From Phycisphaeraceae bacterium (GTDB lineage Bacteria; Planctomycetota; Phycisphaerae; Phycisphaerales; Phycisphaeraceae), in contig OY771506.1 of assembly GCA_963674705.1 (NCBI GenBank), forward strand, positions 4,448,001 to 4,512,000: DNA of 64,000 nt, in the 5' to 3' direction. Under the pieces are notes generated by a model, which saw only the letters and a program-made list of their open reading frames with translations, searched no databases and had not been told where the DNA came from. Shown piece after piece: positions 10,671-37,286 of the stretch (its first letter is position 1; the number at the start of each line of letters is the position of its first letter). A program made the translations under genes and the position numbers.

Positions 10671-10826
10671 TTATTGTGATTGCATACGAACCTCTTCTGA
10701 GGTCAATGCTTTGTTTTTGGTAATCGATCGTCTTGACGTCCACCAGATTGTCACTGCATACCCCCACATCAAACCGATCGCCACGATGTATGCAAGAATG
10801 GTGTGCTGGAGTGGATCCATATTCAT
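10671..10826 (-). CDS. ccmD: CcmD-like small membrane protein (51 aa; not in the ORF track)
   Basis: Hand translation MNMDPLQHTILAYIVAIGLMWGYAVTIWWTSRRSITKNKALTSEEVRMQSQ; ATGA overlap with ccmC stop, GGAGGTG SD, one TM helix then basic tail. Confidence 0.72.
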   Translation of the reverse strand: MNMDPLQHTILAYIVAIGLMWGYAVTIWWTSRRSITKNKALTSEEVRMQSQ

Positions 10827-11539
10827 GCGACACCTCCAAGCCGACCCCTTACGATACTTTGAGACTCGTGTTGCCCACCGTCTTCAAGTTCTTCATGCTG
10901 AACTCGTTGTAGCAGGAAACGTGCAATAACTAAACCCACAGAGATCATGGTGACCGGTATCATGCAGACAAGGAGCGTCCACTTCATTTCTGTAGTCAGC
11001 GTGATCGATGAGGGATGGATGTCAGGCATCAACTTGACAGACAAGTAAACCAACGGCACATCAACAAAAGCCACGATTCCATATACTGCACTCACCAATG
11101 CCCTACGCTGTCGGGATTCGATTGATGGGCGTATCACAAGATAGGCCACGTACAGTAACCAGAGCACAAGACTGAAGGTTAAGCGCGGGCTCCAGGTCCA
11201 CCATACACCCCATGCACTGTGCCCCCAGATCATACCTGTCAGTAGAACCACACCACACAGTAGTACGGCGACCTTTGCTGACGACACTGCCAGATCGTCC
11301 CATACCTGTCGTCTTTGCCAAAGGTAGCCGACCGATGCGATGAAACAGACCAGGCAAGCCAGGAATGTATTAATGGCCACGGGCAAATGGAGATAGAATA
11401 CTTTTTGCACGATGCCCATCGTTTCTTCGACAGGTGTCCAGAAGAAAATCATGGCGGTCGCGACAGTAAACAACATCGCGGTCACCAGCCAGTATATTGC
11501 CCATATTGTCCCACTTATATGTTTCATCACAAATCCCAA
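10823..11539 (-). CDS. ccmC: Heme exporter/cytochrome c biogenesis protein CcmC
   Basis: VFYLHLP, WGHSAWGVWWTWSPRLT tryptophan-rich motif, DIHP; start may be 11527. Confidence 0.92.
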   Translation of the reverse strand: MGFVMKHISGTIWAIYWLVTAMLFTVATAMIFFWTPVEETMGIVQKVFYLHLPVAINTFLACLVCFIASVGYLWQRRQVWDDLAVSSAKVAVLLCGVVLLTGMIWGHSAWGVWWTWSPRLTFSLVLWLLYVAYLVIRPSIESRQRRALVSAVYGIVAFVDVPLVYLSVKLMPDIHPSSITLTTEMKWTLLVCMIPVTMISVGLVIARFLLQRVQHEELEDGGQHESQSIVRGRLGGVA

Positions 11540-12217
11540 TCATGGTTCGAGGATCAACTCAAACACGAGCCAACTCACAGTCAGGTATATCGCATCGAAT
11601 GCAATCAAGACCAAAACGCCAGTGGTATTAAAAGGTTCGTTGTCACCAAATAGGCGCATCATCATTTGAGTGGAAACGATCACTAAAGGCAGAGATACCG
11701 GAAAGATAAGGATAGCCAACAATCCACCCTGCAGGCGCGTCGAACTGACTGCAGCTGAGAACAACGTGCCGACGGCTGCAAATCCTACAAAACCTCCAGC
11801 CATGATCGCGACAAACCCGATCGGCGAAGCGGACAAATCGAAGCCAAACATGATCACCGCAACCGGTGTTACGACCAGCGATAGCGCGACCATCAATATC
11901 AGGTTGCTCAGTAATTTACCTGCATAAATTGCACCGCGATCAACAGGTGCCAACATGAGTCCGGCTAATGCGCCATCATGTCGCTCGACAGCCATGGTTT
12001 TTTCAAAGCACAAGACTCCGCCGAAAAGGTAGGCGACCCATAGGACCGCCGTCGCTGCGATTCCAGACTTGACCTGCTCTGGTCCTAGACCAAGACCGAG
12101 TACTACAACGATCAGCACACCCAGTACAACCACCAGTCCAAGCGTCTGTCGGCTGCGGGCTTCAATACGAAGATCTTTACTACTAATCAGAATGATTTGC
12201 TGGAGCACATGCGTCAT
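11540..12217 (-). CDS. ccmB: Heme exporter protein CcmB
   Basis: KDLRIEARSR, ERHDGALAGLMLAP, IYAGK, LLAILIFPVSLPL; about 6 TM. Confidence 0.92.
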   Translation of the reverse strand: MTHVLQQIILISSKDLRIEARSRQTLGLVVVLGVLIVVVLGLGLGPEQVKSGIAATAVLWVAYLFGGVLCFEKTMAVERHDGALAGLMLAPVDRGAIYAGKLLSNLILMVALSLVVTPVAVIMFGFDLSASPIGFVAIMAGGFVGFAAVGTLFSAAVSSTRLQGGLLAILIFPVSLPLVIVSTQMMMRLFGDNEPFNTTGVLVLIAFDAIYLTVSWLVFELILEP

Positions 12218-12999
12218 TGCCCGATCACCTCCCGCGTCACCGCTTCCGGATCAGCAAGATGGATCGGCTGGTCACATACAATATGCCCTTGACGCAAGAC
12301 AACCACACGTTTGGCAAGCTCAAGGCTTTGTCTGACATCGTGGTTTGTCAGGATGATGGTTTTACCTTCAGCATTAAGTTCGGCCAGCAGGTTCGTGACA
12401 GACACAACTGAAGGAACATCCAACCCTGAGAACGGTTCATCAGCCAGCATAAGATCAGGGGCATGCATTAAAGCCCGGGCTATGGATAATCTCTGCACCA
12501 TACCTCGGCTGAATGTTTTTACCTGGCTCTTAGCACGCTCCGCTAAATCAACACGTTCGAGCAATTCCATGGCACGCTCTGCGTGTCGTCTGACACCATA
12601 GAGTTTGCCAAAGAAGATAAGGTTCTCGATTGCTGAAAGATCGCGGTATAGCATCGGCTGATGACCGATGACACCGATCCGAGCACGGAGTTTAGGATTC
12701 GGACGATTCGCGGCTTCACCGAAGAGTGATATCCTCCCGGCAGTCGGTTGACTGAGCATCGCGAGTATGTGCAGCAGTGTACTTTTGCCGGCACCATTTG
12801 GTCCAAGCAGCGTCAGATATGAGCCTACCGGCACATTCAAGCTCAGTTTGCGTAGCACCCATCGTTCGTCATACCGCTTACACACTTGATTAAGGCATAC
12901 CGCAAGACCCGCCGATTCACTCTCGGCACGATTAGTTTCTAACACGGGCTCGGCGGTCATGCTGATCATCGGTAGATTAATTAGGTTAACCGGCTGCAC
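12214..12999 (-). CDS. ccmA: Heme ABC exporter ATPase CcmA
   Basis: GPNGAGKST Walker A, FSRGMVQR signature, LADEPFSGLD; position in ccm operon. Confidence 0.88.
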   Translation of the reverse strand: MQPVNLINLPMISMTAEPVLETNRAESESAGLAVCLNQVCKRYDERWVLRKLSLNVPVGSYLTLLGPNGAGKSTLLHILAMLSQPTAGRISLFGEAANRPNPKLRARIGVIGHQPMLYRDLSAIENLIFFGKLYGVRRHAERAMELLERVDLAERAKSQVKTFSRGMVQRLSIARALMHAPDLMLADEPFSGLDVPSVVSVTNLLAELNAEGKTIILTNHDVRQSLELAKRVVVLRQGHIVCDQPIHLADPEAVTREVIGQ

Positions 13000-14047
13000 C
13001 GGTAGGTTCTGGTTTACGGGAGGGTTTCATCATTACAACCAATGCCGCTAGAGCAACCGCTCCCCCACCAATGCCAGCGATCATTTTCATCTGACCCGAT
13101 TGGCCGCTTGCCGGATTTATCAAGGCAGGTGTGGCGGAGGAAGACTGCTCTTCACCGGCCGGCTCTACTTCTATTGTCACACTAATCGGTGTGCCTTTTT
13201 CGAGTTCTTTGCCCATGAACATCCGAAACTGTTTATTCCCGGCCTTGAATGGTTCACCGGCGGTCAGGCCCACCGCTTCAACCTTGGATTCATCGTCGGG
13301 TAGGAATACCATCATCTGCTTGATCGGCGCGTCAACTGTTAATGGCAGCTTGAATACACCATTCACTGGGGCAAGCAGGTAGTTGATGTGTAATTCGTTT
13401 GTACCTGGTATTAGTGGCATACCACTGACAAGTTTGCCATCTTCAACAAGCACATTGTCAGGCGCAAAGCCTCTACCCGGTTGCACGTGGCTGGCGTGCT
13501 GTGGGATCGGCATGGTAATTGTGATCCGTTCGAGCGTTTTCTGTTCAGCTTGGTCCCCCTTTGCAGGTTGTTCAAGGTTTCCGGTTTCGTTAGCGACAAC
13601 TGAATCCCCCGCTTTATCAGCACTTGGAACCTCAACCGGCTTGCCTATGTAACTCTTCTCAGTTGGGTTTACCACCGCCCAAACCTCGGTCACATGCATT
13701 TGATCTTCCATCGGTCGAACAATCAGATGACGAACAGCGACAAACCATTCCGGTTCTACCTCAGTGGTTTCGTAGACAACTTCCGGTGCCTTGGTGACGG
13801 GTGGATGTCCCGCCGGCATCTGGCCGTGGAATCGTTTCACCGGAGGATGGCCTTGAGGCATCTCCGGTTGCCCTTGCGGCGTCTCCTGTTGCCCCCCCGA
13901 CACGGGAGGATGGCCCGGAGGCATTTGTGGAGATTGCTGTGCTTGTTCATCACCCGTGGTTTGCGTCTCTTCAGCGTGCAACGAGCCCGTGGCAAGACAC
14001 AGGGACACGGCGAGAGATAATACGAACAGGAAAGCTATGCGTATCAC
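12986..14047 (-). CDS. Periplasmic C-terminally anchored protein in the ccm operon with three MPxGHPPV repeats
   Basis: Signal peptide, MPPGHPPV/MPQGHPPV/MPAGHPPV, C-terminal TM; overlaps ccmF stop. Confidence 0.75.
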   Translation of the reverse strand: MIRIAFLFVLSLAVSLCLATGSLHAEETQTTGDEQAQQSPQMPPGHPPVSGGQQETPQGQPEMPQGHPPVKRFHGQMPAGHPPVTKAPEVVYETTEVEPEWFVAVRHLIVRPMEDQMHVTEVWAVVNPTEKSYIGKPVEVPSADKAGDSVVANETGNLEQPAKGDQAEQKTLERITITMPIPQHASHVQPGRGFAPDNVLVEDGKLVSGMPLIPGTNELHINYLLAPVNGVFKLPLTVDAPIKQMMVFLPDDESKVEAVGLTAGEPFKAGNKQFRMFMGKELEKGTPISVTIEVEPAGEEQSSSATPALINPASGQSGQMKMIAGIGGGAVALAALVVMMKPSRKPEPTGAAG

Positions 14048-16146
14048 TTGATCGGCTCCGTTTCTTTGTTACTTATATTTGTATTGATGGTTGAACTGAC
14101 TTCGCAGAGTCCTTCGCCCGCTAGCGCCAGGTGCACCGAAGCGGGCTTACGTTTATTCTGCGATGTAGATTCAGGTGAGGACATAGGACCAGGTACGGTC
14201 TGGCTCATCAAACGTGGCATCAGACAGAACACTGCCCCTATTGACATGACAATCCCACCGATCCAGATCCATGCGACCAGTGGATTAATGATCGCCTGTA
14301 TCGCAACGAGTGAACCGTCTTCATTCCAACCGCCGAGTGTCAGGTAAGTATCACGCAACCATGTGGAGTTTAGTGCAACCTGAGCGCTGGGCTGCTCGGA
14401 CTTGTCATAGAATCGCCGTTGCGGACGCAGTTCAACAGGTGTACCACCATTTGAAGGATACAGGTTGACTTGCGCTTCAACCGCGGTGTAGTTGGCCTGA
14501 CGATTTTGATGTAGGCCGGCGAAGGTGATCGTGTACCCACTGATGCTGGCAGATTCACCCGGTGAGAGTCGGAAGTTCTGCTCGACACCAAAGAGGCTGG
14601 ACCCAGCCACACCGATCATGAATAACACCATACCGATATGAACAAACTGCCCACCATACCTCCGATGGTTACCATCGATTACGTGCAGTGTCGCTGTTAC
14701 TGCCGTTTCCTCCTCAATCTTCAAACGCTGCTTGACCGCATTGGCGAGACCGACGCCTACGCTGAGGATCGACACGGTCGCTATGGCCGCACAGGCCAAC
14801 GCCCAGGGATCTGTCAAGCCTAAAGCGGGCGCTATAACCAGCACTATTGCAGCCGTGATTGCAGGGATCAGCAGCCCTTTAGCAAGGGATCGGCCGGCAT
14901 CCTTGCCATAGGTCAATAAGGGCCCAACCGCCATAACAGCTAACAGTGCCAGGCCCAATGGCAGAACAATCTTGTTGTAGAAATTGGGTCCAACAGTCAC
15001 CGGCTCGGGCAAGACCACACTGCTGATCAGCGGGAAGATCGTACCGACCAGTGTCGTCAAAGTGATGATCACTAACAGAACGTTCACCGCAAGGAACGCG
15101 CCTTCCTTAGTAAACATGCCTTCCAGCGACTTCTCGCTCTTAAGCAGCTTATGGCGCCAAATAATCACCGCCATACTGATGACCACGCACAATCCAAGGA
15201 ATACCAGGAAGAACGTCGCGACCAGCGAACCGCCAAAAGCGTGCACAGACTGAACCACACCACTACGTGTCAGGTAAGTGCCGAAGATGCAGAGCAGGAA
15301 AGTCACCGAAATCAGCACCGCGTTCCAGGTCTTAAACATACCACGCTGCTGCTGGATCATGATCGAATGCAATAGTGCGGTGCCGGTCAGCCAGGGCAGG
15401 AGCGATGCATTTTCGACGGGGTCCCACGCCCAGTAGCCGCCCCAGCCCAACTCGATATATGCCCACTTAGCACCTAAGAGGATCCCGATGGTCAGGAACA
15501 GCCAAGACACCATCAGCCATTTACGTGTCGCACCGATCCACTGGTTATCTTTTCGCCCAGCGATCAAAGCCGCCAAGAGCATCGCCCAGGGGATTGTGTA
15601 CGCGGCATAACCGACGAACAGTAACGGCGGGTGGATGATCATGTACGGGTCTTGAAGCAATGGATTAAGACCACGGCCATCTACTGCCCTCACCGGTAAC
15701 TGCTCAAATGGATTGGCTGCGAACAACATCAAGGCCGCAAAGAATCCGCAGACCATTGCCAGTATCCTGATCATCACAGCCTGCTCGATGGTTTCACGCT
15801 TACTGTAGCTATACACTGCAACAGCACTCATACCCGCCAGCAACAGTGTCCAAAGCATCAGGCTGCCTTCCTGGCCGGCCCAGAAAGCAGCGATCTTATA
15901 GCCGGTGGGTAAAGCTTTTTCTGTATAGCTGGCGACGTATGCGTTCTGGAAGTCGCTGTTAATCAAGGCCGACAAGAGCGACCAACAGCTAAGCACAATC
16001 ATCACAACGTAAACATAAATCAACCGTCTTGCCCAGAGCAGCGCACCAGTCAGTCCATCCTTAGCCGCAAGCGCAGAGCAAAAAAACGCTCCAGCAGCTA
16101 TGAGCATCGCCCCAATCAAGCTGATGTAACCCATATCTGCTGTCAT
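14044..16146 (-). CDS. ccmF: Cytochrome c heme lyase CcmF
   Basis: WAGQEGSL, GLNPLLQ, IHPPLL, WGGYWAWDPVENAS, LTRSGVVQSVHAF. Confidence 0.95.
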   Translation of the reverse strand: MTADMGYISLIGAMLIAAGAFFCSALAAKDGLTGALLWARRLIYVYVVMIVLSCWSLLSALINSDFQNAYVASYTEKALPTGYKIAAFWAGQEGSLMLWTLLLAGMSAVAVYSYSKRETIEQAVMIRILAMVCGFFAALMLFAANPFEQLPVRAVDGRGLNPLLQDPYMIIHPPLLFVGYAAYTIPWAMLLAALIAGRKDNQWIGATRKWLMVSWLFLTIGILLGAKWAYIELGWGGYWAWDPVENASLLPWLTGTALLHSIMIQQQRGMFKTWNAVLISVTFLLCIFGTYLTRSGVVQSVHAFGGSLVATFFLVFLGLCVVISMAVIIWRHKLLKSEKSLEGMFTKEGAFLAVNVLLVIITLTTLVGTIFPLISSVVLPEPVTVGPNFYNKIVLPLGLALLAVMAVGPLLTYGKDAGRSLAKGLLIPAITAAIVLVIAPALGLTDPWALACAAIATVSILSVGVGLANAVKQRLKIEEETAVTATLHVIDGNHRRYGGQFVHIGMVLFMIGVAGSSLFGVEQNFRLSPGESASISGYTITFAGLHQNRQANYTAVEAQVNLYPSNGGTPVELRPQRRFYDKSEQPSAQVALNSTWLRDTYLTLGGWNEDGSLVAIQAIINPLVAWIWIGGIVMSIGAVFCLMPRLMSQTVPGPMSSPESTSQNKRKPASVHLALAGEGLCEVSSTINTNISNKETEPIK

Positions 16147-16559
16147 TGGATCGCCTCAATACGCTTTTCGTGTTCTTCTGACTGGTATTTGCTGGCACAT
16201 TTGGTCATCAGCGTGTCAGCCTGAAAGACACCGACTTCATCGAGTTTGCCCTCGACCATCACCTCACAACCAGGTTTGAAGGTATCCGGAACGACGCCTT
16301 CAAAATGGACCGGCACGCTATTGCTGGTGCCGCGCAGATCAAATGACGCCGTAAGCATGGCCGGTTGAACCTCAACTTTGTCTTCGTCCACCAGGCCATA
16401 CAACCGGACACGACGATGCTGGTAGCTGTCGTCCAGGACGAAGTCATCTACGTGCATGTAGTAGACCCAGCCGCTCTTGACTCCCGCGACGGCCAGGTAA
16501 CTTACCGAGGCGACCAATACCAGCCCCACAATCAACATTTTGATACGAACGTGTGTCAT
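16143..16559 (-). CDS. ccmE: Heme chaperone CcmE, CxxxY (System I*) variant
   Basis: VYY, VRLYGLV, GVVPDTFKPG, EGKL, LMTKCASKY; ATG 16559 preferred over the ORF-track start. Confidence 0.92.
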   Translation of the reverse strand: MTHVRIKMLIVGLVLVASVSYLAVAGVKSGWVYYMHVDDFVLDDSYQHRRVRLYGLVDEDKVEVQPAMLTASFDLRGTSNSVPVHFEGVVPDTFKPGCEVMVEGKLDEVGVFQADTLMTKCASKYQSEEHEKRIEAIQ

Positions 16560-16596
16560 AGCCCGTCCCTTTACACAAAGTTCCGGGATACATATC

Positions 16597-16611
16597 ACAA
16601 AGTCGATGCCA
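16597..16611 (-). promoter_or_regulatory. Possible sigma54 promoter for the ccm operon (imperfect -12)
   Basis: TGGCATCGACTTTGT: GG-N10-GT instead of GC, about 40 bp upstream of ccmE. Confidence 0.4.
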
Positions 16612-16908: not shown

Positions 16909-16924
16909 TGGTACAGCTCTTGCA
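16909..16924 (+). promoter_or_regulatory. sigma54 -24/-12 promoter of the OmcE-like tetraheme gene
   Basis: TGGTACAGCTCTTGCA = GG-N10-GC with TTGCA. Confidence 0.72.
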
Positions 16925-17227
16925 TTAGGTACCGGAGAAGGTCTCTATTTAAAGCGAGAAACACATGTCCACCATTCAGGCACAATCAGGTCCCATCGGG
17001 ACACCATCACTTGAAAGGGCGCCACCGGGTGGGCGGGATTGGATTGAGAGACGCCGGTCGCCTTGAGGGGGGGCCGGCCCAGTGATCTGTTCTTTGAATC
17101 GTGAATTTACCCAGTTTGAAAAATAAGACGCCCCGGCCGAAACGCCTACACGCATGACACGGCAAGCGAATCGAACCGAGGCGACAGCCACTTAGGCCAA
17201 AAACATCATATGTAAGGAGAGGCCTCA

Positions 17228-17833
17228 ATGAAAACAAAACTACTCGTCGGAGCAATCGCGGTGGCGGGTCTTGCGTTCGGGATGAACGGCACATCATATG
17301 CCGCCCACTCGGACCATGGCTGCGTTAACTGCCATATGCCCCACAAGTCCGGCGACCCAACTGATCCCGATGCCTACGGTGTGCCCCTGTGGAGCACCGC
17401 CCAGACAGCGGATGGATTGCCGACCTTCGATCTGTACACCAGCGCCAGCTTAGACGCGACAGACGTCAGCCAGCCCAGTGGCCCCAGCAAGCTATGCCTG
17501 GGTTGCCACGACGGCAGCTACGCCGTCTTCAGCTACATCCCCGACTCCGAAGCCATCTTCGAGACCGGCGATCTGGCCAGCTCGCACCCGATTTCGTTCA
17601 CCTATGACGACGCACTGGCAACTGCTGACGGTGGTCTGAAGCAACCCAGCACCGTAACCTCGGGCCTGGGCGGCACCATCGCCGAAGACCTGCTCGACTC
17701 ACAGGGCAAGATGCAGTGCACCAGCTGCCATGATGTTCACACCAGCGGACACGGCGATTACTTGTTGAAGTATGACATCGACGCCGCCTCCGAACATGAA
17801 GCCCTGCTCTGCCGGGCTTGTCACAACAAATAA
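17228..17833 (+). CDS. Secreted tetraheme cytochrome c, OmcE-like (candidate filament subunit)
   Basis: Signal peptide; CVNCH, CLGCH, CTSCH, CRACH; OmcE-type pattern CHxPH..PLW..FxLYxS..SxLCxxCHDG..DLxxxHPxxF..CxSCHxVH..LCxxCH at extreme C-terminus; SD TAAGGAGAGG. Confidence 0.85.
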   Translation: MKTKLLVGAIAVAGLAFGMNGTSYAAHSDHGCVNCHMPHKSGDPTDPDAYGVPLWSTAQTADGLPTFDLYTSASLDATDVSQPSGPSKLCLGCHDGSYAVFSYIPDSEAIFETGDLASSHPISFTYDDALATADGGLKQPSTVTSGLGGTIAEDLLDSQGKMQCTSCHDVHTSGHGDYLLKYDIDAASEHEALLCRACHNK

Positions 17834-17867
17834 GTTCAATCCGTTTCGAGCAGCGTAGAGACCAAAT

Positions 17868-17908
17868 CAAAACGGGGCCCGTTCACTTGGCGGGCCCCGT
17901 TTGTTTTT
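17868..17908. terminator. Bidirectional intrinsic terminator
   Basis: AAACGGGGCCCG/CGGGCCCCGTTT stem with A-run before and T-run after, between convergent genes. Confidence 0.8.
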
Positions 17909-17941
17909 AATCTTGCAGACTAGCGTGTATAAGTGCTTCGC

Positions 17942-19036
17942 TTACGGATTCTTCATCTTCCCAAATGCGTAAACGCCGATCTTATTGTCGCCGAATTGAT
18001 TCGCCAGGAATATCAAGTATTCCGGCTCAAATCCCGGGGCCATATATTCCCTGTATAAATCAATACTGGAGCGGTCGATTGTAATCCCCGCAGGCAATCC
18101 CATCCTATCCGGACCGTCTGTAGCGCCGCCAAAAAAGAGCAGTGTTTGGCCTTCAGGGTTGAATAGCTGAACGATTTCCCATTGGGCGTCGGCAATATAG
18201 ATCACGCCATCAGGATCGATCGCAATGCCCTTGGGACGAGCGAAGTAGCCCGGGCGGTCGCCAGGCTCACCGATAAGTTTAAGTAGATTCCCTTCAGGAT
18301 TGAATACCTTGACTGTGCTGAGTTCTGAGTCGACAACGTAGATATTCCCGTCCGGTCCAATAGCAAGATTCGTTGGATAGCGAAGCTGATCCGGCTCGCG
18401 CCCTTTGCTGGAGAAGCTACGAAGCAACTCGCCGCTGGATTTAGACCAGACTTCGATCTTGCACTGCTTGATGTTACAGACATACAACTGATCACCGTCA
18501 ATAGCTACATCAATCGGCACACAACGGACAGGATCACCCATTGCACGGACAAAGCGGTCATTGGCATCAAACACCAGAATCTGTGACTTCTGAGGATGAG
18601 TATCACAGATATACTTCGTGCCGTCCTTGTCGATAGTGATATTGACCGGGCCAAAGAAGCTGTCTTCCTGACCCAAGCGTGAATAGGTCTTGTTCGCCAA
18701 GTCGTAGATATGCACGCAATGTAACGGGATGTCGCAGACATACAGCTTCTGATTGTAGACGGCCAGACCATAAGGCCCGTGCATCTTGTGCGGTGCTTCG
18801 GTCTGCTGCTTATCACCCACAACAAAATCGGCAAAAGAGCTCTTTTTAATCATCCAGCGCTCGGCGTCGCTGAAACTGGTCAGGAACTGCAAACGAGGTT
18901 CAGAAGGCGGCGGCGGGTAGAAGATGGCGTTAGTCTCGACAGTAACCTCCTGCGGAGCTGAGGTACAGCCGCCGACACCTGATAAGACCCACAGCGTGAG
19001 TGAGACAATTAATAACATTCGGGTCCATGCGTTCAT
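17942..19036 (-). CDS. NHL-repeat beta-propeller lipoprotein
   Basis: Lipobox-like VGGC; FYPPPPSEPRLQF; NHL repeats (LRYPTNLAIGPDGNIYVVD, FARPKGIAIDPDGVIYIAD). Confidence 0.88.
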   Translation of the reverse strand: MNAWTRMLLIVSLTLWVLSGVGGCTSAPQEVTVETNAIFYPPPPSEPRLQFLTSFSDAERWMIKKSSFADFVVGDKQQTEAPHKMHGPYGLAVYNQKLYVCDIPLHCVHIYDLANKTYSRLGQEDSFFGPVNITIDKDGTKYICDTHPQKSQILVFDANDRFVRAMGDPVRCVPIDVAIDGDQLYVCNIKQCKIEVWSKSSGELLRSFSSKGREPDQLRYPTNLAIGPDGNIYVVDSELSTVKVFNPEGNLLKLIGEPGDRPGYFARPKGIAIDPDGVIYIADAQWEIVQLFNPEGQTLLFFGGATDGPDRMGLPAGITIDRSSIDLYREYMAPGFEPEYLIFLANQFGDNKIGVYAFGKMKNP

Positions 19037-19107
19037 ATCTGATCTCCTGCGGGTCTACCCCTGACATAATGTTCGTGTGTACCGAAAGCTTCGATCCATA
19101 TATCTAC

Positions 19108-19280: not shown

Positions 19281-19296
19281 CGGCACAGACTTTGCC
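19281..19296 (+). promoter_or_regulatory. sigma54 promoter of the decaheme-porin-NHL-12-heme operon
   Basis: CGGCACAGACTTTGCC = GG-N10-GC. Confidence 0.7.
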
Positions 19297-19321
19297 TTAT
19301 ATCGGTGGAGAGGCTGCGCTT

Positions 19322-20485
19322 ATGACGTTTGGCAAACTGAGATACAACAAAGCGGGCTGCGACCATGCCTATGTCGGTGGTGTCCGCTGTGTGATGTGCT
19401 CATTTTGCAGAATCATGCCCATTCTCGTAGTCGTGCTGTGCTTCGTTCTAATCTTCCTGACAGGCTGCCAGGACGAAGTACAGCGATACAAGACGCTGAG
19501 TTTCTTCTTCGATGGCGTGCCAGTGCCGGAGGGTTACGATCCACCCCATAAAACCGAGGAACTGATCGGGCCTTGGGGTGTAGCCATCCCGGCAGACAGT
19601 GACCTTGGCAGGCAGATGCTGGCCGAACGAGATGCCTGGCCAGACCAACAGTCAACACAAGTGACGGAAGAAGTTTTCTTCTATCACACACCGTATCAGA
19701 AACGAGACTGCTTCGGATGCCACAATGAAGAGCAGGGATATACCCCACCGACTACCGGGGCCGAACTTTGCAGCAAGTGCCACGAATCCTACATCGAGTT
19801 TGAGCAAGACGACTGGGTTCATGGCCCCGTCGTGGTTGGTAAGTGTGGTTGGTGCCACGAGGCCCACAAATCTGAATACCCCTCGCTGACCAAAGAAGCC
19901 CAGCCCGATCTTTGCATGACCTGCCACGATCCGTACTTCATTGAAAGCGATCAATTCCATGCCGGCCTTGAGGATAAGCAGTGCTCACGGTGCCATGATC
20001 CGCATGCATCAGGCAACCGTCTTCTTCTTGCTGATTCCCGTACGTACGAGCGTCGTCAAGCGACCTTTGCATTGTTGCCTTCTCCCCACGCAGGCTGGCC
20101 CAAGGACCTGTGCAGTAAATGCCACATCCCCGAGCAGTCCAATGCCTTGACTGAAGATGTCGATTCAACCTGCATTTCGTGCCACGATGAATACACAGCG
20201 GATAACACCGAATCGACTCATATTCATGAAGCGGTTACACAAGGCAAATGCACAGCCTGCCACATGCCACACCGCTCAACAATGCCGAAACTGATCCGCG
20301 CTGATGCGGAAAAGATGTGTTATCAGTGTCACAAACCAGAAGAATTACAGAACGGTAAACACCCAAATGTCACACGTGTGGATTGCCTGATCTGCCATAA
20401 CGGTCACAGTTCTCCTCGGCCTTCGCTGCTCAAACAAGATATTCCTGGCGGCGCCCAACAGGCAAAGGCAGGTGTTGAGCCATGA
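19322..20485 (+). CDS. Decaheme cytochrome c lipoprotein
   Basis: 10 CxxCH; lipobox LTGC; TLSFFFDGVP; paired CxxCHxxH repeats; start 19322 (SD GGAGAGG) or 19394. Confidence 0.9.
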   Translation: MTFGKLRYNKAGCDHAYVGGVRCVMCSFCRIMPILVVVLCFVLIFLTGCQDEVQRYKTLSFFFDGVPVPEGYDPPHKTEELIGPWGVAIPADSDLGRQMLAERDAWPDQQSTQVTEEVFFYHTPYQKRDCFGCHNEEQGYTPPTTGAELCSKCHESYIEFEQDDWVHGPVVVGKCGWCHEAHKSEYPSLTKEAQPDLCMTCHDPYFIESDQFHAGLEDKQCSRCHDPHASGNRLLLADSRTYERRQATFALLPSPHAGWPKDLCSKCHIPEQSNALTEDVDSTCISCHDEYTADNTESTHIHEAVTQGKCTACHMPHRSTMPKLIRADAEKMCYQCHKPEELQNGKHPNVTRVDCLICHNGHSSPRPSLLKQDIPGGAQQAKAGVEP

Positions 20486-22485
20486 GCCTGCATCTGCCGC
20501 GATCAGTTGGTGTCTTGGTGCTTCTGATGTTTCCGTCGATAACGGCGCATGCTCAGTCGACCGCACCAATCCAGCCCATGAACATCACCGGGTTTGAAGG
20601 CGACCTGTTATTCACCGGACACTACCGGATCGACGAAGAAACCAGCGGCAATGGTCAGGTGACCGAAGAAAAAGATATATTCTTCCGTGAAGAGCTTGGT
20701 TTGAGATCCAGTGGTTACTTTTATCACCCCAATCTGGTCGATTGGAGCGCCGGTCTCAGACTCGGCCTGACACAGCAACGTATCGACATTAATAACGAAA
20801 GCTACGACTCCGACGGCGACATTTTCGGATACAACCTCAATGCGCTATTCCTGAAGGAAAAGCCCGTCTCTGTACGTGCCTATGCCAGAAAAACAGACGA
20901 CTTCATAGATCGCAGCTTTGCCCGGCAGATCGAGTTAAAAACGCGCGTCGAGGGCGCCGAGGTTTACATCAAAGGGCAGACACCCATCACACTTCTGTTT
21001 GAACAAAGCGACATCTATGAAGAATCAGACATAAGAACCGACGATGAGACTTCAGACTTGTTCCGCTTCCAGATGATAGATGCACGCAATCCGGATCTGT
21101 TTTCCGAACTGGTTTATGAACATGAGGATGTTGATAAGACAGCAACGTTCTTCCTGGACGGTGAACCCCCGGTGATCCAGGACCTGCCCGACCGTCGAGA
21201 TGAAGTCAGGCTTACAAACAGATGGCGGTTCCCGGATGGCGACCTGACGCACTCTTTATATGGCCATTTACGCCTGCTACGACGACGTGGGGCATTCAAC
21301 AACGATCTTGCCAGCTTCAACCAACGCCTGGATCTACAGCACAGTGATACACTCACTACGTTCTACCGGATTCAAGCATTAACTGATGATACGGACACTC
21401 AGAAAGAAGACCTGCTGGAAGGCGAAGTCGGCTTTATCAAGCAGTACTATCAGAGTTTGTCCGTGACCGGCCGTGTCTTTGCCACGGATAACAAGTTCGA
21501 CAGCAGTGAAGAGCAGAGCTACGGTACCTTCTTTGACTTCGACTATCGTAAAAACACCCCTGTGGGGCGATATAACGCAAGCCTAGGGGTCGGAACGGAT
21601 TTTCAAGACCAGAGTTCAGATTCCGGGTTTAGGAGTATACGAGATGAAGCCGTCGTTCTGGCTGGCGTGACGCCGCAGCAGTTGAGTGAGCCAAACGTCG
21701 TTCCTGGATCGGTTGTGGTTACCGATGTTAATAATGCGGTCACCTTTATTGAAGGCGTGGATTACACGCTTCAGCAATTCGGCCAATTTACTGAGATCGT
21801 GCGATTGGTTACCGGGTCGATCGTCGATGGTCAGCTCGTACTGGTAGATTACGAGGTTGAAGCGGCCGAAAACGCCAACATTCAGACTAACAGGATCCAT
21901 CTTCGTCAACGTCTTCAGATTCAAGACACTCCGTTTGCTTTACTCACTGAATACCGTTTGCGTGACGAAAAACTGCTTTCTGGAGATGATCCCGGGAATC
22001 TTGATCGGCAGGAAATAATCATGTTCGGCTTGGAGTACCATGAAGACCCGTTTACGATTGTCGGCGAATACGAACAGCGCGACCAGCGCCTCTCACCATC
22101 TTCCGTCTCGTATCTTGTTCGAGGCACCTATGACCAGGTATTCAACGACACGATGACCACGACTATCGGCGCTGATTATGAAAACCTGGATTACACCGAT
22201 GCCGAAGACTTCGACCTGGAACCGGGCCGGGACTTTTTAGATCGCTACGGCGTATTTGCTCATACAACAGTCAAATTGCGGCGGGACCTGCTTACACGAT
22301 TCGAAGCCAGCTACAACGATATGAAAGGCAGAGACAACAATAAGCTGGCACGTATCGGAGCATCGTTGAACTATCGGCGTGGGAATCTTAACTTCACGAT
22401 CAGCGGTTACCATGAGGAGTACGAACAGGAAGATGAAACCGGTGATAATGATGTAATCCGCTTCACGCTCAGGCGTTCCTTTTAA
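20482..22485 (+). CDS. Outer-membrane beta-barrel protein (putative porin of a porin-cytochrome or secretion complex)
   Basis: Signal peptide, alternating amphipathic strands, C-terminal IRFTLRRSF; ATGA-coupled to the decaheme gene. Confidence 0.75.
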   Translation: MSLHLPRSVGVLVLLMFPSITAHAQSTAPIQPMNITGFEGDLLFTGHYRIDEETSGNGQVTEEKDIFFREELGLRSSGYFYHPNLVDWSAGLRLGLTQQRIDINNESYDSDGDIFGYNLNALFLKEKPVSVRAYARKTDDFIDRSFARQIELKTRVEGAEVYIKGQTPITLLFEQSDIYEESDIRTDDETSDLFRFQMIDARNPDLFSELVYEHEDVDKTATFFLDGEPPVIQDLPDRRDEVRLTNRWRFPDGDLTHSLYGHLRLLRRRGAFNNDLASFNQRLDLQHSDTLTTFYRIQALTDDTDTQKEDLLEGEVGFIKQYYQSLSVTGRVFATDNKFDSSEEQSYGTFFDFDYRKNTPVGRYNASLGVGTDFQDQSSDSGFRSIRDEAVVLAGVTPQQLSEPNVVPGSVVVTDVNNAVTFIEGVDYTLQQFGQFTEIVRLVTGSIVDGQLVLVDYEVEAAENANIQTNRIHLRQRLQIQDTPFALLTEYRLRDEKLLSGDDPGNLDRQEIIMFGLEYHEDPFTIVGEYEQRDQRLSPSSVSYLVRGTYDQVFNDTMTTTIGADYENLDYTDAEDFDLEPGRDFLDRYGVFAHTTVKLRRDLLTRFEASYNDMKGRDNNKLARIGASLNYRRGNLNFTISGYHEEYEQEDETGDNDVIRFTLRRSF

Positions 22486-22496
22486 AGGTGTCATGC

Positions 22497-23579
22497 ATGT
22501 TCAATGCCACACAATCAACAACCTGCCTTAGGGCGATCACAGCCATATTTCTTGTGTTGTCGATTGTCGGATGTGCTACACCGGACAAATCGGACCAAGC
22601 CTATCATCCGGTCTGGCCGCCGCCACCGGCACAACCACGCGTCCGCCACATCATGGACATCCACTCACCCGACGACCTGCGTAAGCCGTCCGCATTGGAT
22701 AACTTGGGCAGGCTTATCACAGGCGGTGGTAAACAGATCCTGACACGGCCAAATAGTGCCGCCGTTGTCGGTAATAATCTGCTCTGTGTAACGGACCAGG
22801 AATGGCAGGGTGTTCATCTGATGCGTATGAATTCTTCCGGCTCAAAGTTTGTATCACTGGCCACAGACAAACTCCACTTCGTCTCTCCTGTTGGTATCGC
22901 AGAGTTTGGGAAACTAATAGCGGTATCCGATAGTGCCCTGAACAACGTCTACCTACTGACACAGGATGGCAAACCTGCCGGGCAGATTGAGGTTCAGGAT
23001 GGTTTCGCCCGACCGACTGGAATGATGTACGACACTGATAGGGATGAGTTGTATGTTGTCGATACGCTTGCCAATCAGGTTTACGTGTTCGATAGGCATG
23101 GGGATTTGGTTAGGAAGTTCGGATCACAGGGTATCGCTCCCGGGCAATTCAATTACCCAACGCATATTTTTGTTGACAATAGAGGCCGTGTGTTTATCAC
23201 TGACTCGATGAACTTCCGCGTGCAGGTTTTCGATCGCGAGGGTAACTACCTGTTCGATATCGGTGCACACGGCGACGCCAGTGGTTTTCTGGCAGTACCG
23301 AAGGGTGTGGGTGTGGATTCAGTTGGCCACATCTATATCGTCGATTCCTACTTTTCAAACGTACAGGTCTTTGATGAGAAAGGCACATTCTTACTTAGCA
23401 TCGGGGGGCCCGGCAAAGGGATCGGCCAATTCCAGGTACCTTCCGGTCTGCATGTTGACAAAAACAACCGTATCTATATCTGCGACAGCTATAACAGGCG
23501 GGTCCAGGTTCTCGAGTACCTGGATGAAGTAAGCGAAGGAGTTGCGAATCATGAAAACGATTCAGCCACTGATCATTAG
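22497..23579 (+). CDS. NHL-repeat beta-propeller lipoprotein
   Basis: Lipobox IVGC; VWPPPPAQPRV; FNYPTHIFVDNRGRVFITDSMNFRVQVFD repeats. Confidence 0.9.
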   Translation: MFNATQSTTCLRAITAIFLVLSIVGCATPDKSDQAYHPVWPPPPAQPRVRHIMDIHSPDDLRKPSALDNLGRLITGGGKQILTRPNSAAVVGNNLLCVTDQEWQGVHLMRMNSSGSKFVSLATDKLHFVSPVGIAEFGKLIAVSDSALNNVYLLTQDGKPAGQIEVQDGFARPTGMMYDTDRDELYVVDTLANQVYVFDRHGDLVRKFGSQGIAPGQFNYPTHIFVDNRGRVFITDSMNFRVQVFDREGNYLFDIGAHGDASGFLAVPKGVGVDSVGHIYIVDSYFSNVQVFDEKGTFLLSIGGPGKGIGQFQVPSGLHVDKNNRIYICDSYNRRVQVLEYLDEVSEGVANHENDSATDH

Positions 23580-25230
23580 CGTTATAGGTCTTGGCATCTG
23601 CCTGTTGTTGAGTGTCGATGGTATCGCACAGAGTCAGACATCAGATGTCGCATCGACCAAGCACAATCTTTCTTCAACCGGACCAGGTACCGTGCGTGTT
23701 GAAGGCTCATCAGGTGTCTGCAGGTATTGCCACACGCCTCACAGTTCTAATCCAATCGCACCGCTCTGGAACCGGGATGATCCGGGCACCTACTACCAGA
23801 CATATGAAAGTTCGACACTTGTAGCAGACGTCGGGCAACCCAGCGGTTCGTCGCGTTTGTGTTTGAGTTGTCACGATGGCACCATCGCGCTGACGCAAAC
23901 CTACAATCCCAATAATGCTCCAGGTGGCAGTACGGTTTTCATCACATCCAGCGACAGGGGATACATCGGCACAGACCTCAGCGACGATCACCCGATCAGT
24001 TTCGTATACGATTCAGGGCTTGCCGTCGCGAAAGGTCAGTTGCGAGACCCCTCATCGTTACCGCCAGAGTTGCCGCTGGACCACAACAACCATGTGCAGT
24101 GCACAACCTGTCACGAACCGCACGATGATTCTTTCGGCAACTTCCTGAGAATGGACAACACGGAGTCTCGCATGTGCCTGAGTTGTCACGAGCCGGACAA
24201 CTGGGCCAGTTCGGCACACGCCAATTCTGGTGCATCGCTGGCGGGCTCTGATGCCATCTGGGACAACATATCCGCATCAACTGTACGTGAAGCGGGTTGT
24301 GAGAGCTGCCACCGTCCCCACACCGCCGGTGGCCGAGAACGCTTACTTCGACGTGAAGCCGAAGAAGACAACTGCATGGACTGCCACGATGGTACAGTCG
24401 CCCGCGTCGATCTAAGTCCTTCACTTAATGCTCTTAGCACGCATCCTGTCAGATTGACGACGGGGGTTCATGATCCGACCGAGTTGCCTTCGACCATGAG
24501 CGAGCATGTCGAATGTGCAGACTGCCATAATCCTCACCAAGCCAGCCGCGGCGGCCCGAGACAGGCGCCCTATATTCAGCCTGCAATGGCTGGCGCAATC
24601 GGTGTGATGAATGCGGGTCTCACTCCGGGCGAAGCACAATACGAATACCAGGTGTGCTTCAAGTGCCACGGCTCACGCAATGTCAGCCAGCCGACTGTGG
24701 ACCGTATCTATGACAACAGCGATCTGGCCGATGCTTTTGACCCACCGAACGACAGTTATCATCCTGTACAGACACAAGGTAAAAACCCGAATGTTCCCAG
24801 CCTTGTACAGAAGTACAAGACGACCAGCATGATCTATTGCAGCGACTGCCACGGCAGCGATGATCCTTCCGTGAGAGGACCCCATGGCTCACGATTCTCC
24901 CCGCTGCTGACGCATAATTACAACACACGCAATAACACCACGGAAAGCCCGCAAGCCTATGCGCTTTGCTACGAATGCCATAACCGAGCAAGTATCCTGA
25001 GTAATGAGAGCTTCGCAAAACATAAGGAACATCTCGATTCAAACGCATCCTGCGCTACATGCCACGATCCGCACGGCGTCAGAGAGAATACTCACCTGAT
25101 TAACTTCGATCGCACAACGGTCAGTGCCGCGAGTAACGGCGTCGGGCCGATATTCCGAGATAGTGGTGTGTTTGCAGGCTCTTGCACATTGTCTTGCCAC
25201 GGTGTAGACCACATTGACAAAAGCTACTAG
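23551..25230 (+). CDS. Secreted 12-heme cytochrome c with N-terminal OmcE-like tetraheme domain
   Basis: 11 CxxCH + terminal CTLSCH; N-terminal TKHNLS..CRYCHTPH..PLWNR..SRLCLSCHDG..GTDLSDDHPISF..CTTCHEPH..FLR..MCLSCH; SD AAGGAG. Confidence 0.9.
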   Translation: MKTIQPLIISVIGLGICLLLSVDGIAQSQTSDVASTKHNLSSTGPGTVRVEGSSGVCRYCHTPHSSNPIAPLWNRDDPGTYYQTYESSTLVADVGQPSGSSRLCLSCHDGTIALTQTYNPNNAPGGSTVFITSSDRGYIGTDLSDDHPISFVYDSGLAVAKGQLRDPSSLPPELPLDHNNHVQCTTCHEPHDDSFGNFLRMDNTESRMCLSCHEPDNWASSAHANSGASLAGSDAIWDNISASTVREAGCESCHRPHTAGGRERLLRREAEEDNCMDCHDGTVARVDLSPSLNALSTHPVRLTTGVHDPTELPSTMSEHVECADCHNPHQASRGGPRQAPYIQPAMAGAIGVMNAGLTPGEAQYEYQVCFKCHGSRNVSQPTVDRIYDNSDLADAFDPPNDSYHPVQTQGKNPNVPSLVQKYKTTSMIYCSDCHGSDDPSVRGPHGSRFSPLLTHNYNTRNNTTESPQAYALCYECHNRASILSNESFAKHKEHLDSNASCATCHDPHGVRENTHLINFDRTTVSAASNGVGPIFRDSGVFAGSCTLSCHGVDHIDKSY

Positions 25231-25314: not shown

Positions 25315-26334
25315 TCATTGCCTGGCAGATCGATGCTCATAAGCATTGCGATATGCTACTGCCGCCTGCTCCCATTCCTGGTCGTGTTCATGGACGCGTC
25401 CGAGATAGTAGTAAGCCTCAGAAGGATCAGGATTCACGTTCAAGGCAGCATCTAACGCAACTTTCGCCTCTTCGTAGCGATCTAACTCAACCAAGGCGCG
25501 TCCGCGGAGCGTCTGAACACGCCACGTCGGCGCCTTGCCTTCAGGTATTGTGTCAAGCTGAGTGATGGCTTGAGTTGGATTTTGTTTAATCACATACACA
25601 CGGGCCAACATCAGGATCAATTGCGTATCCTTGGGATCAATCGTTAATCCTTGTTGTAATTCTTGCAACGCAAGGTCGGTTTGCCCCTTTTCAAGCAACC
25701 GCTCCGCCATGTGTAAATGTCTTGAAGCGACACTGTCCGGCGTACTGGCTATTGTTCCATTTGATTTTAGCCGTTCTTCCAAGGCAGTTTTATCAATAAC
25801 GCCGTTCGCGTAATCGACATAGGCCTGCAGATCCTTGCCGTACGATGCTCGCAATCCTGGCATGTGTGCAACTCGGTTACCTGCCGGATCAATGACTTCG
25901 GTCGTTGGCCATACCCGTACAGATAATTGCCCTGATGCGTCGTAATCCTGGTCAATCACAACTGGACCCGCCCACTGGCCGGAATCCTTGATACGTTTGG
26001 CGCCCTCAGCGGCATCTTGGCCACTGACGACAAGGATAGGCTGGATCAAGTCTTTATGTGCAGGATCAGCTAAGAGCACATTGAGTTGGTTCATCGCAGT
26101 GTCACTGCGCTCCTGGTCGGCTTTGACAAACAGGATGATGCTGGTCTTGCCTTCGACAGGCACTCCGATTTGATCGCCTTCCGCATCCGTCACACGCCAT
26201 TCGATCTGGGCCACTGCTATCTGATCTGTAGATTGTGACATTGCGATATTGCCATGCATGGCAAGAGATAGTCCCAAGGCAGCAGTACAAAGTGTTTTGA
26301 GTCCGTACTTCATCATATGATTGTGCTGTTTCAT
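25315..26334 (-). CDS. Secreted protein: thioredoxin-like fold lacking CxxC plus TPR repeats
   Basis: GKTSIILFVKADQERS, PVVIDQD, VRVWPTTEVIDPAG (TlpA-like) then TPRs (ALNVNPDPSEAYYYLGRV). Confidence 0.72.
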   Translation of the reverse strand: MKQHNHMMKYGLKTLCTAALGLSLAMHGNIAMSQSTDQIAVAQIEWRVTDAEGDQIGVPVEGKTSIILFVKADQERSDTAMNQLNVLLADPAHKDLIQPILVVSGQDAAEGAKRIKDSGQWAGPVVIDQDYDASGQLSVRVWPTTEVIDPAGNRVAHMPGLRASYGKDLQAYVDYANGVIDKTALEERLKSNGTIASTPDSVASRHLHMAERLLEKGQTDLALQELQQGLTIDPKDTQLILMLARVYVIKQNPTQAITQLDTIPEGKAPTWRVQTLRGRALVELDRYEEAKVALDAALNVNPDPSEAYYYLGRVHEHDQEWEQAAVAYRNAYEHRSARQ

Positions 26335-26345: not shown

Positions 26346-27686
26346 CTATTGCTGTGCGGTGTAATCGACAGGATTCTCACGGTCATATGCTTTGTGCTGA
26401 TGGCAACCGGGCGTACACGATCCGCCGGTATCGGTCTGCTCGTAATTGATCGGTAACTCCCAGTTACCATATGGAACGGTTTCTCGCAGATGCAGAGCCA
26501 ACGTGCTGGCGTGAACACTATGGCACGCCCTGCAGCTCCGTCCGCGTGGATCCTTATTCACATGCATATAATGCATGTTGGTATCACCATTACGGAATCC
26601 GGTCAATCCCTTTGCTTCTGGTGTTAGCACCAGTTGCTCGTCATGACATTCAAAACAAAGCTTGTAACTGTTAATATCAAACGGCTGGTAGAACGTTTCG
26701 GGGTATTCTTCGGTGAGTAGGTTTGAGAATTCTGAACCGTGAACATTATGACACCCGCCACAACTGCCCTCGGCAACCGGGCCGTGTTTAATGAGGTTCG
26801 GATTTGTAACTTCCGTCACAGCGGCGACATCCCGCCCATCGATTGCTGTAACCGGCTCGTTGTGACAGGTCATGCAGATGTCAACGGGTTTATCTTTCAT
26901 CAGGTTTGCCAAATCGCCGCCGTGTGGCGTATGGCAATTCCCACACGCCCGGTCCTGCGTAACTGCTGTGTGCTGATACTTAGCAGTGGTAACCGCTTCT
27001 TTTACCTGTTCATGGCATGATGTGCACAATTCATTTTGAGATTCACGGATAAACATCGGGAAGTTTGATCCGTGCGCATCATGGCAATTCATGCAATCCT
27101 CTTTAACAGGCTCATGCACAAACGTAACTTTGCTAAGCTGATCATTCATCTCCGTATGACATGTAACACACAACTCCCGGCCGGTCTCGACCAGAAGCTT
27201 AGGCTTTGTAGAAGCGTGTGCCTGGTGACACATCCCGCAGGCGCCGGCCGCAACCGGGCCATGAATAAACTCCATATTCGCTGTCACATCCTGGTGGCAT
27301 GATGCACACAACTCATTCATCGTTGGCTTCTTCAGAGAGTTACTATCAAATCCACCATGCGGATCATGGCATCCGGTACAGTCGCGTGTGACCAGTGGTT
27401 CGTGCAATGTTGCCCCCTCTGGCACCTCGATGACGTGGCAGAATGTACAGGTTTCAGCCTTTTCTCTTGCCGGCTTATACGTGTGTGTCTTAGCATCAAC
27501 CAACGTATGACAAGCATCACAGGCATTTACATTCACAGGTCCATGCAGAACCTTGTGATCTTTTACATTCGCATGGCAATCCGCGGTGACACAACTCTCG
27601 GGCTTGATCTCTGTCGTCGGTTTATCGAGCCCCATACAAAGGGTTGTGCATAGCACAAGCATGATAATTGTCTGGTAGTACTTCAT
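26346..27686 (-). CDS. Periplasmic 15-heme cytochrome c
   Basis: 13 CxxCH + CVTADCH + CTPGCH; signal peptide. Confidence 0.92.
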   Translation of the reverse strand: MKYYQTIIMLVLCTTLCMGLDKPTTEIKPESCVTADCHANVKDHKVLHGPVNVNACDACHTLVDAKTHTYKPAREKAETCTFCHVIEVPEGATLHEPLVTRDCTGCHDPHGGFDSNSLKKPTMNELCASCHQDVTANMEFIHGPVAAGACGMCHQAHASTKPKLLVETGRELCVTCHTEMNDQLSKVTFVHEPVKEDCMNCHDAHGSNFPMFIRESQNELCTSCHEQVKEAVTTAKYQHTAVTQDRACGNCHTPHGGDLANLMKDKPVDICMTCHNEPVTAIDGRDVAAVTEVTNPNLIKHGPVAEGSCGGCHNVHGSEFSNLLTEEYPETFYQPFDINSYKLCFECHDEQLVLTPEAKGLTGFRNGDTNMHYMHVNKDPRGRSCRACHSVHASTLALHLRETVPYGNWELPINYEQTDTGGSCTPGCHQHKAYDRENPVDYTAQQ

Positions 27687-33034: not shown

Positions 33035-33117
33035 GGTTTGGCCTCGCATTCGGATGGCTGGGATTGAATCACGCCGACCACGCGAGGCGCGTACATACAA
33101 CCACCCAATTGCTGCAT

Positions 33118-33133
33118 TGCACACCGCGTGCCA
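33118..33133 (-). promoter_or_regulatory. sigma54 promoter of the inner-membrane/periplasmic cytochrome operon
   Basis: Minus strand TGGCACGCGGTGTGCA = GG-N10-GC with consensus TGGCACG. Confidence 0.78.
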
Positions 33134-34543: not shown

Positions 34544-34567
34544 GCTGGATTTACCCGCACGAAGTGA

Positions 34568-36647: not shown

Positions 36648-36695
36648 GACTTACCCAGCACTACTACAAATCTCGCGCCGAACTGGCGAGAGAAC

Positions 36696-36711
36696 TGGTA
36701 TCCCGTTTGCG
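36696..36711 (+). promoter_or_regulatory. sigma54 promoter upstream of the ygbA-like gene
   Basis: TGGTATCCCGTTTGCG = GG-N10-GC. Confidence 0.62.
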
Positions 36712-36768
36712 ATAATTCTGACCGGACGAAGAAATCCGATTCTGTGATTAACCTGCGGAATACTTCTA

Positions 36769-37152: not shown

Positions 37153-37179
37153 GTGCAATTGAGAGGAAAATGACTTACA

Positions 37180-37197
37180 ATTCTCACTCTTGAGAAT
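37180..37197. promoter_or_regulatory. Perfect ATTCTCA-N4-TGAGAAT palindrome upstream of the activator gene
   Basis: ATTCTCACTCTTGAGAAT, 90 bp before the NtrC-family start. Confidence 0.68.
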
Positions 37198-37286
37198 GTT
37201 GGCGGGCGTATCTTTCATAACCAATGCGATGTCGACAAACGGGTAGTACCGGTTCGTCAGAGGACATCTATCTGCAGGCTAAGTCC

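What the first reader, a model, noticed from the sequence alone, without database searches (positions are those of the whole stretch)
17228..17833. Stand-alone OmcE-like tetraheme with the hallmarks of a highly expressed filament subunit
Seen: 201 aa, four CxxCH, the last at the extreme C-terminus; inter-heme motifs (PH, PLW, FxLYxS, SxLCxxCHDG, DLxxxHPxxF, CHxVH) match my recollection of G. sulfurreducens OmcE, which polymerises into nanowires. The gene is monocistronic, with its own sigma54 promoter, strong SD, terminator and visibly more C-ending codons than its neighbours. It lacks the TKHxLS N-terminal segment and has AHSDHG instead. Inference: structural wire subunit, perhaps with a different inter-subunit heme ligation.
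Basis: partly seen in the sequence, partly recalled or inferred. Interest (0 to 1): 0.88.

Follow-up and report, generated by a model that had tools for sequence, protein, structure and literature searches.

The report
OmcE-type nanowire cytochrome in a planctomycete
A planctomycete bacterium carries a four-heme protein that matches OmcE, the building block of Geobacter's conductive filaments, inside a large cluster of cytochrome, outer-membrane-pore-like and heme-attachment genes, so it likely builds protein wires of its own, in a phylum where our literature searches found none named.

Summary
The ORF is real: 201 aa, four CxxCH. Its only PDB sequence hits are the two solved OmcE filaments (7TFS, 9YUQ), and its model's only fold hit is 7TFS. 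The sigma-54 site (13 of 69 related loci, 0.6 expected), Shine-Dalgarno, terminator and C-ending codon excess check out; the codon excess is not family-wide (29 of 58 loci).

Two corrections. It is not stand-alone: it sits in a 28-kb electron-export island of a Phycisphaeraceae genome (barrel-like protein, two NHL lipoproteins, 10-, 11- and two 13-heme cytochromes, CbcL-like and NapC-domain membrane cytochromes, ccm genes, sigma-54 activator). And the TKH histidine is not lost: His27 (103/103) takes its column, so all four distal histidines remain; only the loop is shortened.

It belongs to a planctomycete subfamily, sister to Geobacter OmcE/UetA, with a different barrel. Best reading (0.6): nanowire subunit, likely capped and fed by the neighbouring undecaheme, whose N-terminal domain is itself OmcE-like. 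Polymerisation, location and expression are untested. A sister lineage shares this block near-identically, suggesting recent transfer. New variant of a known kind.

The parts
16909..16924 (+). sigma-54-type -24/-12 site
   Evidence: conserved in position in 13 of 69 related loci; function not tested
16935..17227 (+). predicted ~290-nt 5' leader with conserved blocks and hairpins
   Evidence: start inferred from the -12 box; no Rfam match of note; single-sequence fold z -0.05
17214..17219 (+). Shine-Dalgarno AAGGAG, 8 nt before ATG
17228..17833 (+). OmcE-like tetraheme cytochrome c (P0001); residues 1-25 likely Sec signal peptide; distal His candidates H27, H39, H120, H171
   Evidence: cleavage site inferred by eye
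17870..17910 (+). intrinsic terminator-like hairpin with T tail, between convergent genes
17942..19036 (-). NHL beta-propeller, lipobox-like motif
19292..20485 (+). 10-CxxCH paired-CXXCH cytochrome, lipobox-like motif (true start probably downstream)
20482..22485 (+). 667-aa likely outer-membrane beta-barrel
   Evidence: C-terminal RxF conserved; HHalign 96.5% to Uet-type barrels (86), 4% to Geobacter omcE barrels (85); nearest Pfam-bearing atlas clusters are porins at 0.85-0.88, lead only (70); 9 amphipathic strands vs max 7 in 200 shuffles (129); no model obtained
22488..23579 (+). second NHL beta-propeller, lipobox-like motif
23542..25230 (+). undecaheme cytochrome whose first four hemes form an OmcE-like domain with TKHNLS; candidate wire base
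   Evidence: (E 9e-24 to 7TFS); role inferred
25315..26334 (-). TPR protein with weak thioredoxin-like N-terminal match
26346..29233 (-). two 13-CxxCH paired-CXXCH cytochromes (26346-27686, 27683-29233), likely periplasmic relays
29230..30774 (-). NapC/NirT-domain 11-CxxCH membrane cytochrome (ImcH/CymA-like architecture; label recalled)
30785..33124 (-). 10-CxxCH domain fused to cytochrome b (CbcL-like architecture; label recalled)
33233..38657 (.). two sensor-kinase-type genes, a periplasmic binding protein and an NtrC-family sigma-54 activator (37224-38657 +)
   Evidence: control of the tetraheme promoter inferred
10823..16598 (-). cytochrome c maturation system I: ccmE, ccmF, hypothetical, ccmA-like ABC ATPase, ccmB, ccmC

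Best explanation
The gene encodes an OmcE-like four-heme cytochrome with all eight heme-binding histidine positions kept, which likely polymerises head to tail into a conductive filament that is predicted to leave the cell through the neighbouring barrel-like protein. Steps: (1) shown: OmcE sequence and fold, four distal His, C-terminus two residues after heme 4, full accessory cluster; (2) inferred: Sec export and heme attachment by the divergent Ccm system, sigma-54-driven expression as a single abundant mRNA; (3) inferred: His39 (after heme 1) would bind a heme of the next subunit while His27, on a loop shortened from 18-22 to 4 residues, would stay an intra-subunit ligand; (4) inferred: the undecaheme's OmcE-like N-domain would cap the last subunit and carry electrons through the barrel with NHL lipoproteins as scaffolds; (5) inferred: electrons would flow outward, from quinol via the CbcL-like and NapC-domain proteins and the 13- and 10-heme relays, to minerals, humics or partner cells when oxygen is short.
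Confidence: 0.6

Rival explanations
1. It is the outer tip of a porin-cytochrome conduit: one or a few copies dock on the undecaheme at the cell surface, as proposed for UetA/UetJ, without forming micrometre filaments.
For: Cluster shares tetraheme + barrel + two NHL + undecaheme with the uet cluster; the barrel is related to Uet-type barrels; UetA-position tetrahemes hit the same profile (L121, L105; E 1e-12, 2e-13). Codon bias is not family-wide.
Against: A separate promoter, terminator and codon bias would be unnecessary for a 1:1 subunit. Self-complementary ends (donor His, two-residue tail) give no stop to polymerisation. The uet authors themselves allow polymers.
Confidence: 0.24
2. It is a wire, but with a changed interface: the N-terminal His is the bridging ligand in OmcE, so the 4-residue spacer forces a new ligation or helical geometry.
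For: Spacer is 3-5 in 36 of 38 planctomycete-clade loci vs 10-22 in 40 of 41 others. PMC12203936 names heme 2 as the cross-ligated one. N-terminus is unresolved in the model.
Against: His count and order are unchanged; structural alignment starts at model 25 / chain 30, next to OmcE His31. In OmcS the bridging His follows heme 1 and the first His lies close before heme 1 (recalled, no call); eLife PMC9473688 says OmcS and OmcE share the pattern.
Confidence: 0.18
3. It is an abundant soluble periplasmic carrier or electron store serving the island's membrane cytochromes.
For: Cleavable-looking signal peptide, no lipobox, acidic (pI 4.5); separate high-level expression also fits a shuttle.
Against: OmcE fold leaves one heme without a ligand in a monomer (PMC13712944); both solved relatives are extracellular filaments; the island already has 10- and 13-heme relays; tight linkage to the barrel (77).
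Confidence: 0.1
4. The system takes electrons up (Fe(II), Mn(II) or cathode oxidation) rather than exporting them.
For: Uet-like partners are tied to electron uptake; the genome has two heme-copper oxidase subunit I genes and a bd oxidase.
Against: No RuBisCO hit; flanks hold a pectate lyase and glycosidase-like ORFs; CbcL/ImcH-type architectures mark outward EET (121). Direction is a separate question from filament formation.
Confidence: 0.2

Closest known systems
Geobacter sulfurreducens OmcE (PDB 7TFS)
   Same: Four CxxCH, four distal His in the same order, inter-heme motifs, two-residue C-tail, fold; NHL lipoprotein, barrel and multiheme neighbours.
   Different: About 25% identity; His-to-Cys1 spacer 4 vs 19; barrel not detectably homologous (85); system I (ccm) rather than ResB/CcsB maturation; no glycosyltransferase genes among the scanned neighbours; extra undecaheme.
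Desulfuromonas soudanensis OmcE bundles (PDB 9YUQ; PMC13712944)
   Same: Sequence match; parts list of the minimal, glycosylation-free cluster (20).
   Different: Different clade by proxy (L132, L133); those clusters have 8- and 9-heme partners and a 755-791-aa barrel, no undecaheme (77). Bundling loops are not conserved in the family, so bundling cannot be inferred.
Uet cluster of Tenderiales and Gallionellaceae (UetA tetraheme, UetC barrel, UetH/I NHL, UetJ undecaheme)
   Same: Tetraheme, barrel, two NHL proteins and an undecaheme with OmcE-like N-domain; barrels related (86).
   Different: No trihemes, PPIase or cupredoxin here; a 10-heme and two 13-heme proteins instead; tetraheme in another clade (124); host lacks RuBisCO (120).
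FeGenie-type DFE/CbcL/PCC hits reported in Phycisphaerae and other Planctomycetota MAGs
   Same: EET potential in this phylum has been noted.
   Different: The passages read name no OmcE or nanowire subunit in Planctomycetota; whether those hits are this cluster was not tested.

Membership tests
OmcE-like nanowire cytochromes (criteria of PMC13712944) | four CxxCH motifs with OmcE-like sequence | tested here: met
OmcE-like nanowire cytochromes (criteria of PMC13712944) | four further conserved His | tested here: met
   H27, H39, H120, H171; H27 is placed by alignment across a gap
OmcE-like nanowire cytochromes (criteria of PMC13712944) | OmcE fold | tested here: met
OmcE-like nanowire cytochromes (criteria of PMC13712944) | large outer-membrane beta-barrel gene nearby | tested here: met
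   667-aa protein; barrel call rests on sequence evidence, no model
OmcE-like nanowire cytochromes (criteria of PMC13712944) | beta-propeller lipoproteins and multiheme cytochromes nearby | tested here: met
OmcE-like nanowire cytochromes (criteria of PMC13712944) | polymerises with one heme ligated by a His of the next subunit | not testable with these tools
   no multimer model or experiment available
OmcE orthologue in the strict sense (Desulfuromonadia omcE locus) | groups with Geobacter/Desulfuromonas OmcE | tested here: not met
   separate clade; proxies L093, L102, L132, L133 used, quick tree, midpoint root
OmcE orthologue in the strict sense (Desulfuromonadia omcE locus) | purHDE-resB-ccsB context and homologous barrel | tested here: not met
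   ccm genes instead (11); barrel HHalign 4%, E 0.01 against a 5-sequence profile (85)
Uet cluster | tetraheme, barrel, two NHL, undecaheme | tested here: met
Uet cluster | trihemes UetD/E/G, PPIase UetB, cupredoxin UetF, ccsAB | tested here: not met
   none in the island

The most novel reading that the evidence does not exclude
Planctomycetes, Bacteroidota, Ignavibacteria, Calditrichota and others share a third architecture of OmcE-type nanowire, in which an undecaheme with an OmcE-like N-terminal domain is the missing anchor: it donates the bridging His to the last subunit and threads seven more hemes into a 660-aa barrel. The planctomycete subunit has a minimised, His-first N-terminus, and the wire block moves between sister species as a unit.
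Probability: 0.35. Interest if true: 0.85.

Novelty: new variant of a known kind. Interest (0 to 1): 0.62.

Why it matters
OmcE wires are solved only from Desulfuromonadia, and the 2026 survey lists five phyla without Planctomycetota. A complete wire-plus-conduit island in an oxygen-respiring Phycisphaeraceae would extend long-range electron transfer to heterotrophs not thought of as electroactive. How these wires are started, ended and anchored is stated as open in PMC13712944; the undecaheme gives a concrete, testable anchor encoded in the same cluster. The alignment also ties UetA/UetJ to the OmcE family. The limit: everything about function is by homology and context.

Full report

2. Expression signals. 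A sigma-54-type site lies at 16909-16924. Alone it is weak (18 of 100 shuffles match), but it is 1 of 7 strict sites in the 5.5-Mb genome, a relaxed form lies upstream of 13 of 69 related genes with enough flank against 0.63 expected, all 13 in the planctomycete clade (kin are not independent), and both boxes are invariant in 6 of 6 close leaders. An RpoN domain and an NtrC-type activator in the island are present. SD and a 14-pair terminator hairpin are real. C-ending codons: 105/196 vs 2429/8162 in 20 neighbours (p 8e-12); CAI 0.545 against 22 ribosomal-operon genes, the 85th percentile of 3792 mechanically called ORFs, while neighbours rank 3rd-60th. Against: in 58 related loci the tetraheme beats its barrel/undecaheme partners in only 29, and the surrounding region is low in GC (48-54% vs 56.6%), which sharpens the contrast here. 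No RNA run holds the stretch.

3. It is not stand-alone. The gene sits in an island from 10823 to 38657: ccm maturation genes; the tetraheme; NHL lipoprotein; 10-heme cytochrome; 667-aa barrel-like protein; second NHL lipoprotein; undecaheme; TPR protein; two 13-heme cytochromes; a NapC/NirT-domain 11-heme protein; a 10-heme plus cytochrome b protein (CbcL-like, label recalled); sensors and the activator: 72 CxxCH motifs in seven genes. PMC13712944 (abstract, Results parts 1-2 of 4, Discussion and passages read; supplement unreadable) picks likely nanowire homologs by a nearby barrel and beta-propeller lipoprotein and gives the minimal cluster as two multiheme cytochromes, two such lipoproteins, OmcE and a barrel. 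Among the 80 best of 236 loci from genome contigs, a barrel homolog is within 10 kb in 54 and a 10-11-heme OmcE-like protein in 49; among the 38 loci of at least 18 kb, 34 and 32.

4. Host and spread. The nearest relatives are Phycisphaeraceae/Phycisphaerales records (72-100% identity). OmcE-like matches occur in 8 of 10 other genomes of the genus, 23 of 143 of the family and 14 of 400 sampled from the phylum; these counts include undecaheme-only matches. More distant loci are Bacteroidota, Ignavibacteriota, Calditrichota, Acidobacteriota and others. The genome has two heme-copper oxidase subunit I genes, a bd oxidase, NrfH with a NrfA-like partner, an octaheme reductase, an Hmc-like pair and no RuBisCO hit: by inference a facultative heterotroph.

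5. The N-terminus. OmcE has TKHDLS with His31, 19 residues before Cys51. Here His27 lies 4 residues before Cys32, is invariant (103/103), and aligns in the TKH column of a 12-sequence alignment spanning all subgroups. H39 (102/103), H120 and H171 (103/103) complete the set; H30, H175 and H190 vary. Spacers are 3-5 in 36 of 38 planctomycete-clade loci and 10-22 in 40 of 41 others (L048, a broken frame, left out). So the loop was deleted, not the ligand. Which His bridges subunits in OmcE I could not see. PMC9473688 and PMC12954529 (passages) say only that one heme takes a His from the neighbour and that OmcS shares the pattern; from memory that His in OmcS follows heme 1, which maps to H39. PMC12203936 (passages) names heme 2, which could point to the N-terminal His. 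I put about 70:30 on unchanged ligation. PMC6771412 and PMC11936953 (passages) did not settle it.

6. Placement. A quick tree on heme cores of 65 chosen rows separates Geobacter/Desulfuromonas OmcE proxies with UetA-position tetrahemes (98), undecaheme N-domains (97), and most tetrahemes of 660-aa-barrel clusters (91), within which the planctomycete group has 98. The barrel matches Uet-type barrels (96.5%, E 8e-10, 324 columns) but not Geobacter omcE barrels (4%); both target profiles hold five sequences. L121 has the published uet gene order (bioRxiv 2022.05.06.490989, passages) and its tetraheme hits our profile. So this is a third cluster type between omcE and uet, not a strict OmcE orthologue.

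7. Mechanism (inferred). Export and heme loading by Sec and Ccm; head-to-tail polymerisation, fitting the invariant two-residue tail (116/116, 79/79, 14/14 four-heme rows; 5, 1 and 16 rows with other heme counts dropped). PMC13712944 notes that each subunit has a heme needing a His from the next, asks for an anchor with a spare His and finds none in omcE operons. The undecaheme fits: its residues up to about 217 match OmcE at E 9e-24, it has His67 after heme 1 to donate, and His260 after heme 5 could satisfy its own heme 3. Geobacter-type loci lack it, so it cannot be universal.

8. Recent transfer. L003, about 91% identical in the flanks, differs at 1 position in 17000-18999 and at most 3 per 250 bp to 22249, and again at 11 positions in 23250-24249, the OmcE-like domain of the undecaheme. 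A contig of run X3 is consistent with the same mosaic (367 differences in 13000-16623, 469 in 16715-27997), a contig of X7 is not (218 in 16715-19348), and X1 matches the window exactly and may be its source. X3 may not be independent of L003. This is one event, direction unknown; it suggests selection on the wire block.

9. Literature. Searches (listings) gave no title or abstract start naming an OmcE-type wire in Planctomycetota; PMC13712944 has no occurrence of the phylum in its main text but says OmcE-like tetrahemes are widespread. EET genes in Planctomycetota are reported generically in bioRxiv 2022.03.26.485925 (passages, 54), PMC5566968 (passages, 57; PCC4, a different cluster), PMC13264449 (passages) and PMC10732223 (passages, abstract, section 11; 122, 123, 125). 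bioRxiv 2026.05.27.727921 (passages, section 9; 106, 110) shows OmcE-like models in Acidobacteriota/Verrucomicrobiota clusters. PMC12133095 and PMC9769857 (passages; 59, 105) add nothing specific. bioRxiv 2025.11.06.686851 (passages; 121) warns that nanowire homologs need not form wires. Subscription papers and supplements were not searchable.

10. Verdict. Observation confirmed; interpretation partly supported. New variant of a known kind: OmcE-like by every sequence, fold and context criterion tested, outside the strict OmcE locus. Wire subunit 0.6; interest 0.62.

Noticed in passing
window 16935-22250 and 23250-24249 vs L003: Near-identical tracts inside a ~91% identical sister locus; they cover the tetraheme, NHL, decaheme, most of the barrel and the undecaheme's OmcE-like domain. 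Suggests recent homologous transfer.
   Followed up: partly
window 16990-17225: Long leader with conserved blocks and hairpins in 6 close relatives; no Rfam family, covariation unconvincing.
   Followed up: partly
window 20482-22485, residues about 387-471: A segment inside the barrel-like protein weakly matches a phage tail-tube model (NF052337, 27 bits, cut-off 60); possibly an inserted beta-sandwich, reminiscent of an usher plug (speculative).
   Followed up: no
L121:933-1760, L105:745-1626: Tetrahemes at the UetA position and the UetJ N-terminal domains are OmcE-like, linking the uet uptake cluster to the OmcE family.
   Followed up: partly
L019, L016, L066, L071, L072: Three to five short OmcE-like paralogs (4-6 hemes) near one barrel cluster; candidates for minor, tip or terminator subunits.
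   Followed up: no
L011, L012, L024: Planctomycete-type tetrahemes in records labelled Actinomycetota or Woesearchaeota; transfer or binning error.
   Followed up: no
L125:6659-12287 (G000): 22-heme cytochrome next to a fused HmcB/HmcC-like protein in the same genome.
   Followed up: no
window -18000 to 42000 region (bins): GC is 48-54% around the island against 56.6% genome-wide and 58-62% in loci L004, L005, L008; the low-GC zone extends beyond the cytochrome genes into carbohydrate-enzyme genes.
   Followed up: partly
window 36696 and 19281: Relaxed sigma-54-like sites upstream of the activator gene and of the decaheme-barrel operon.
   Followed up: no
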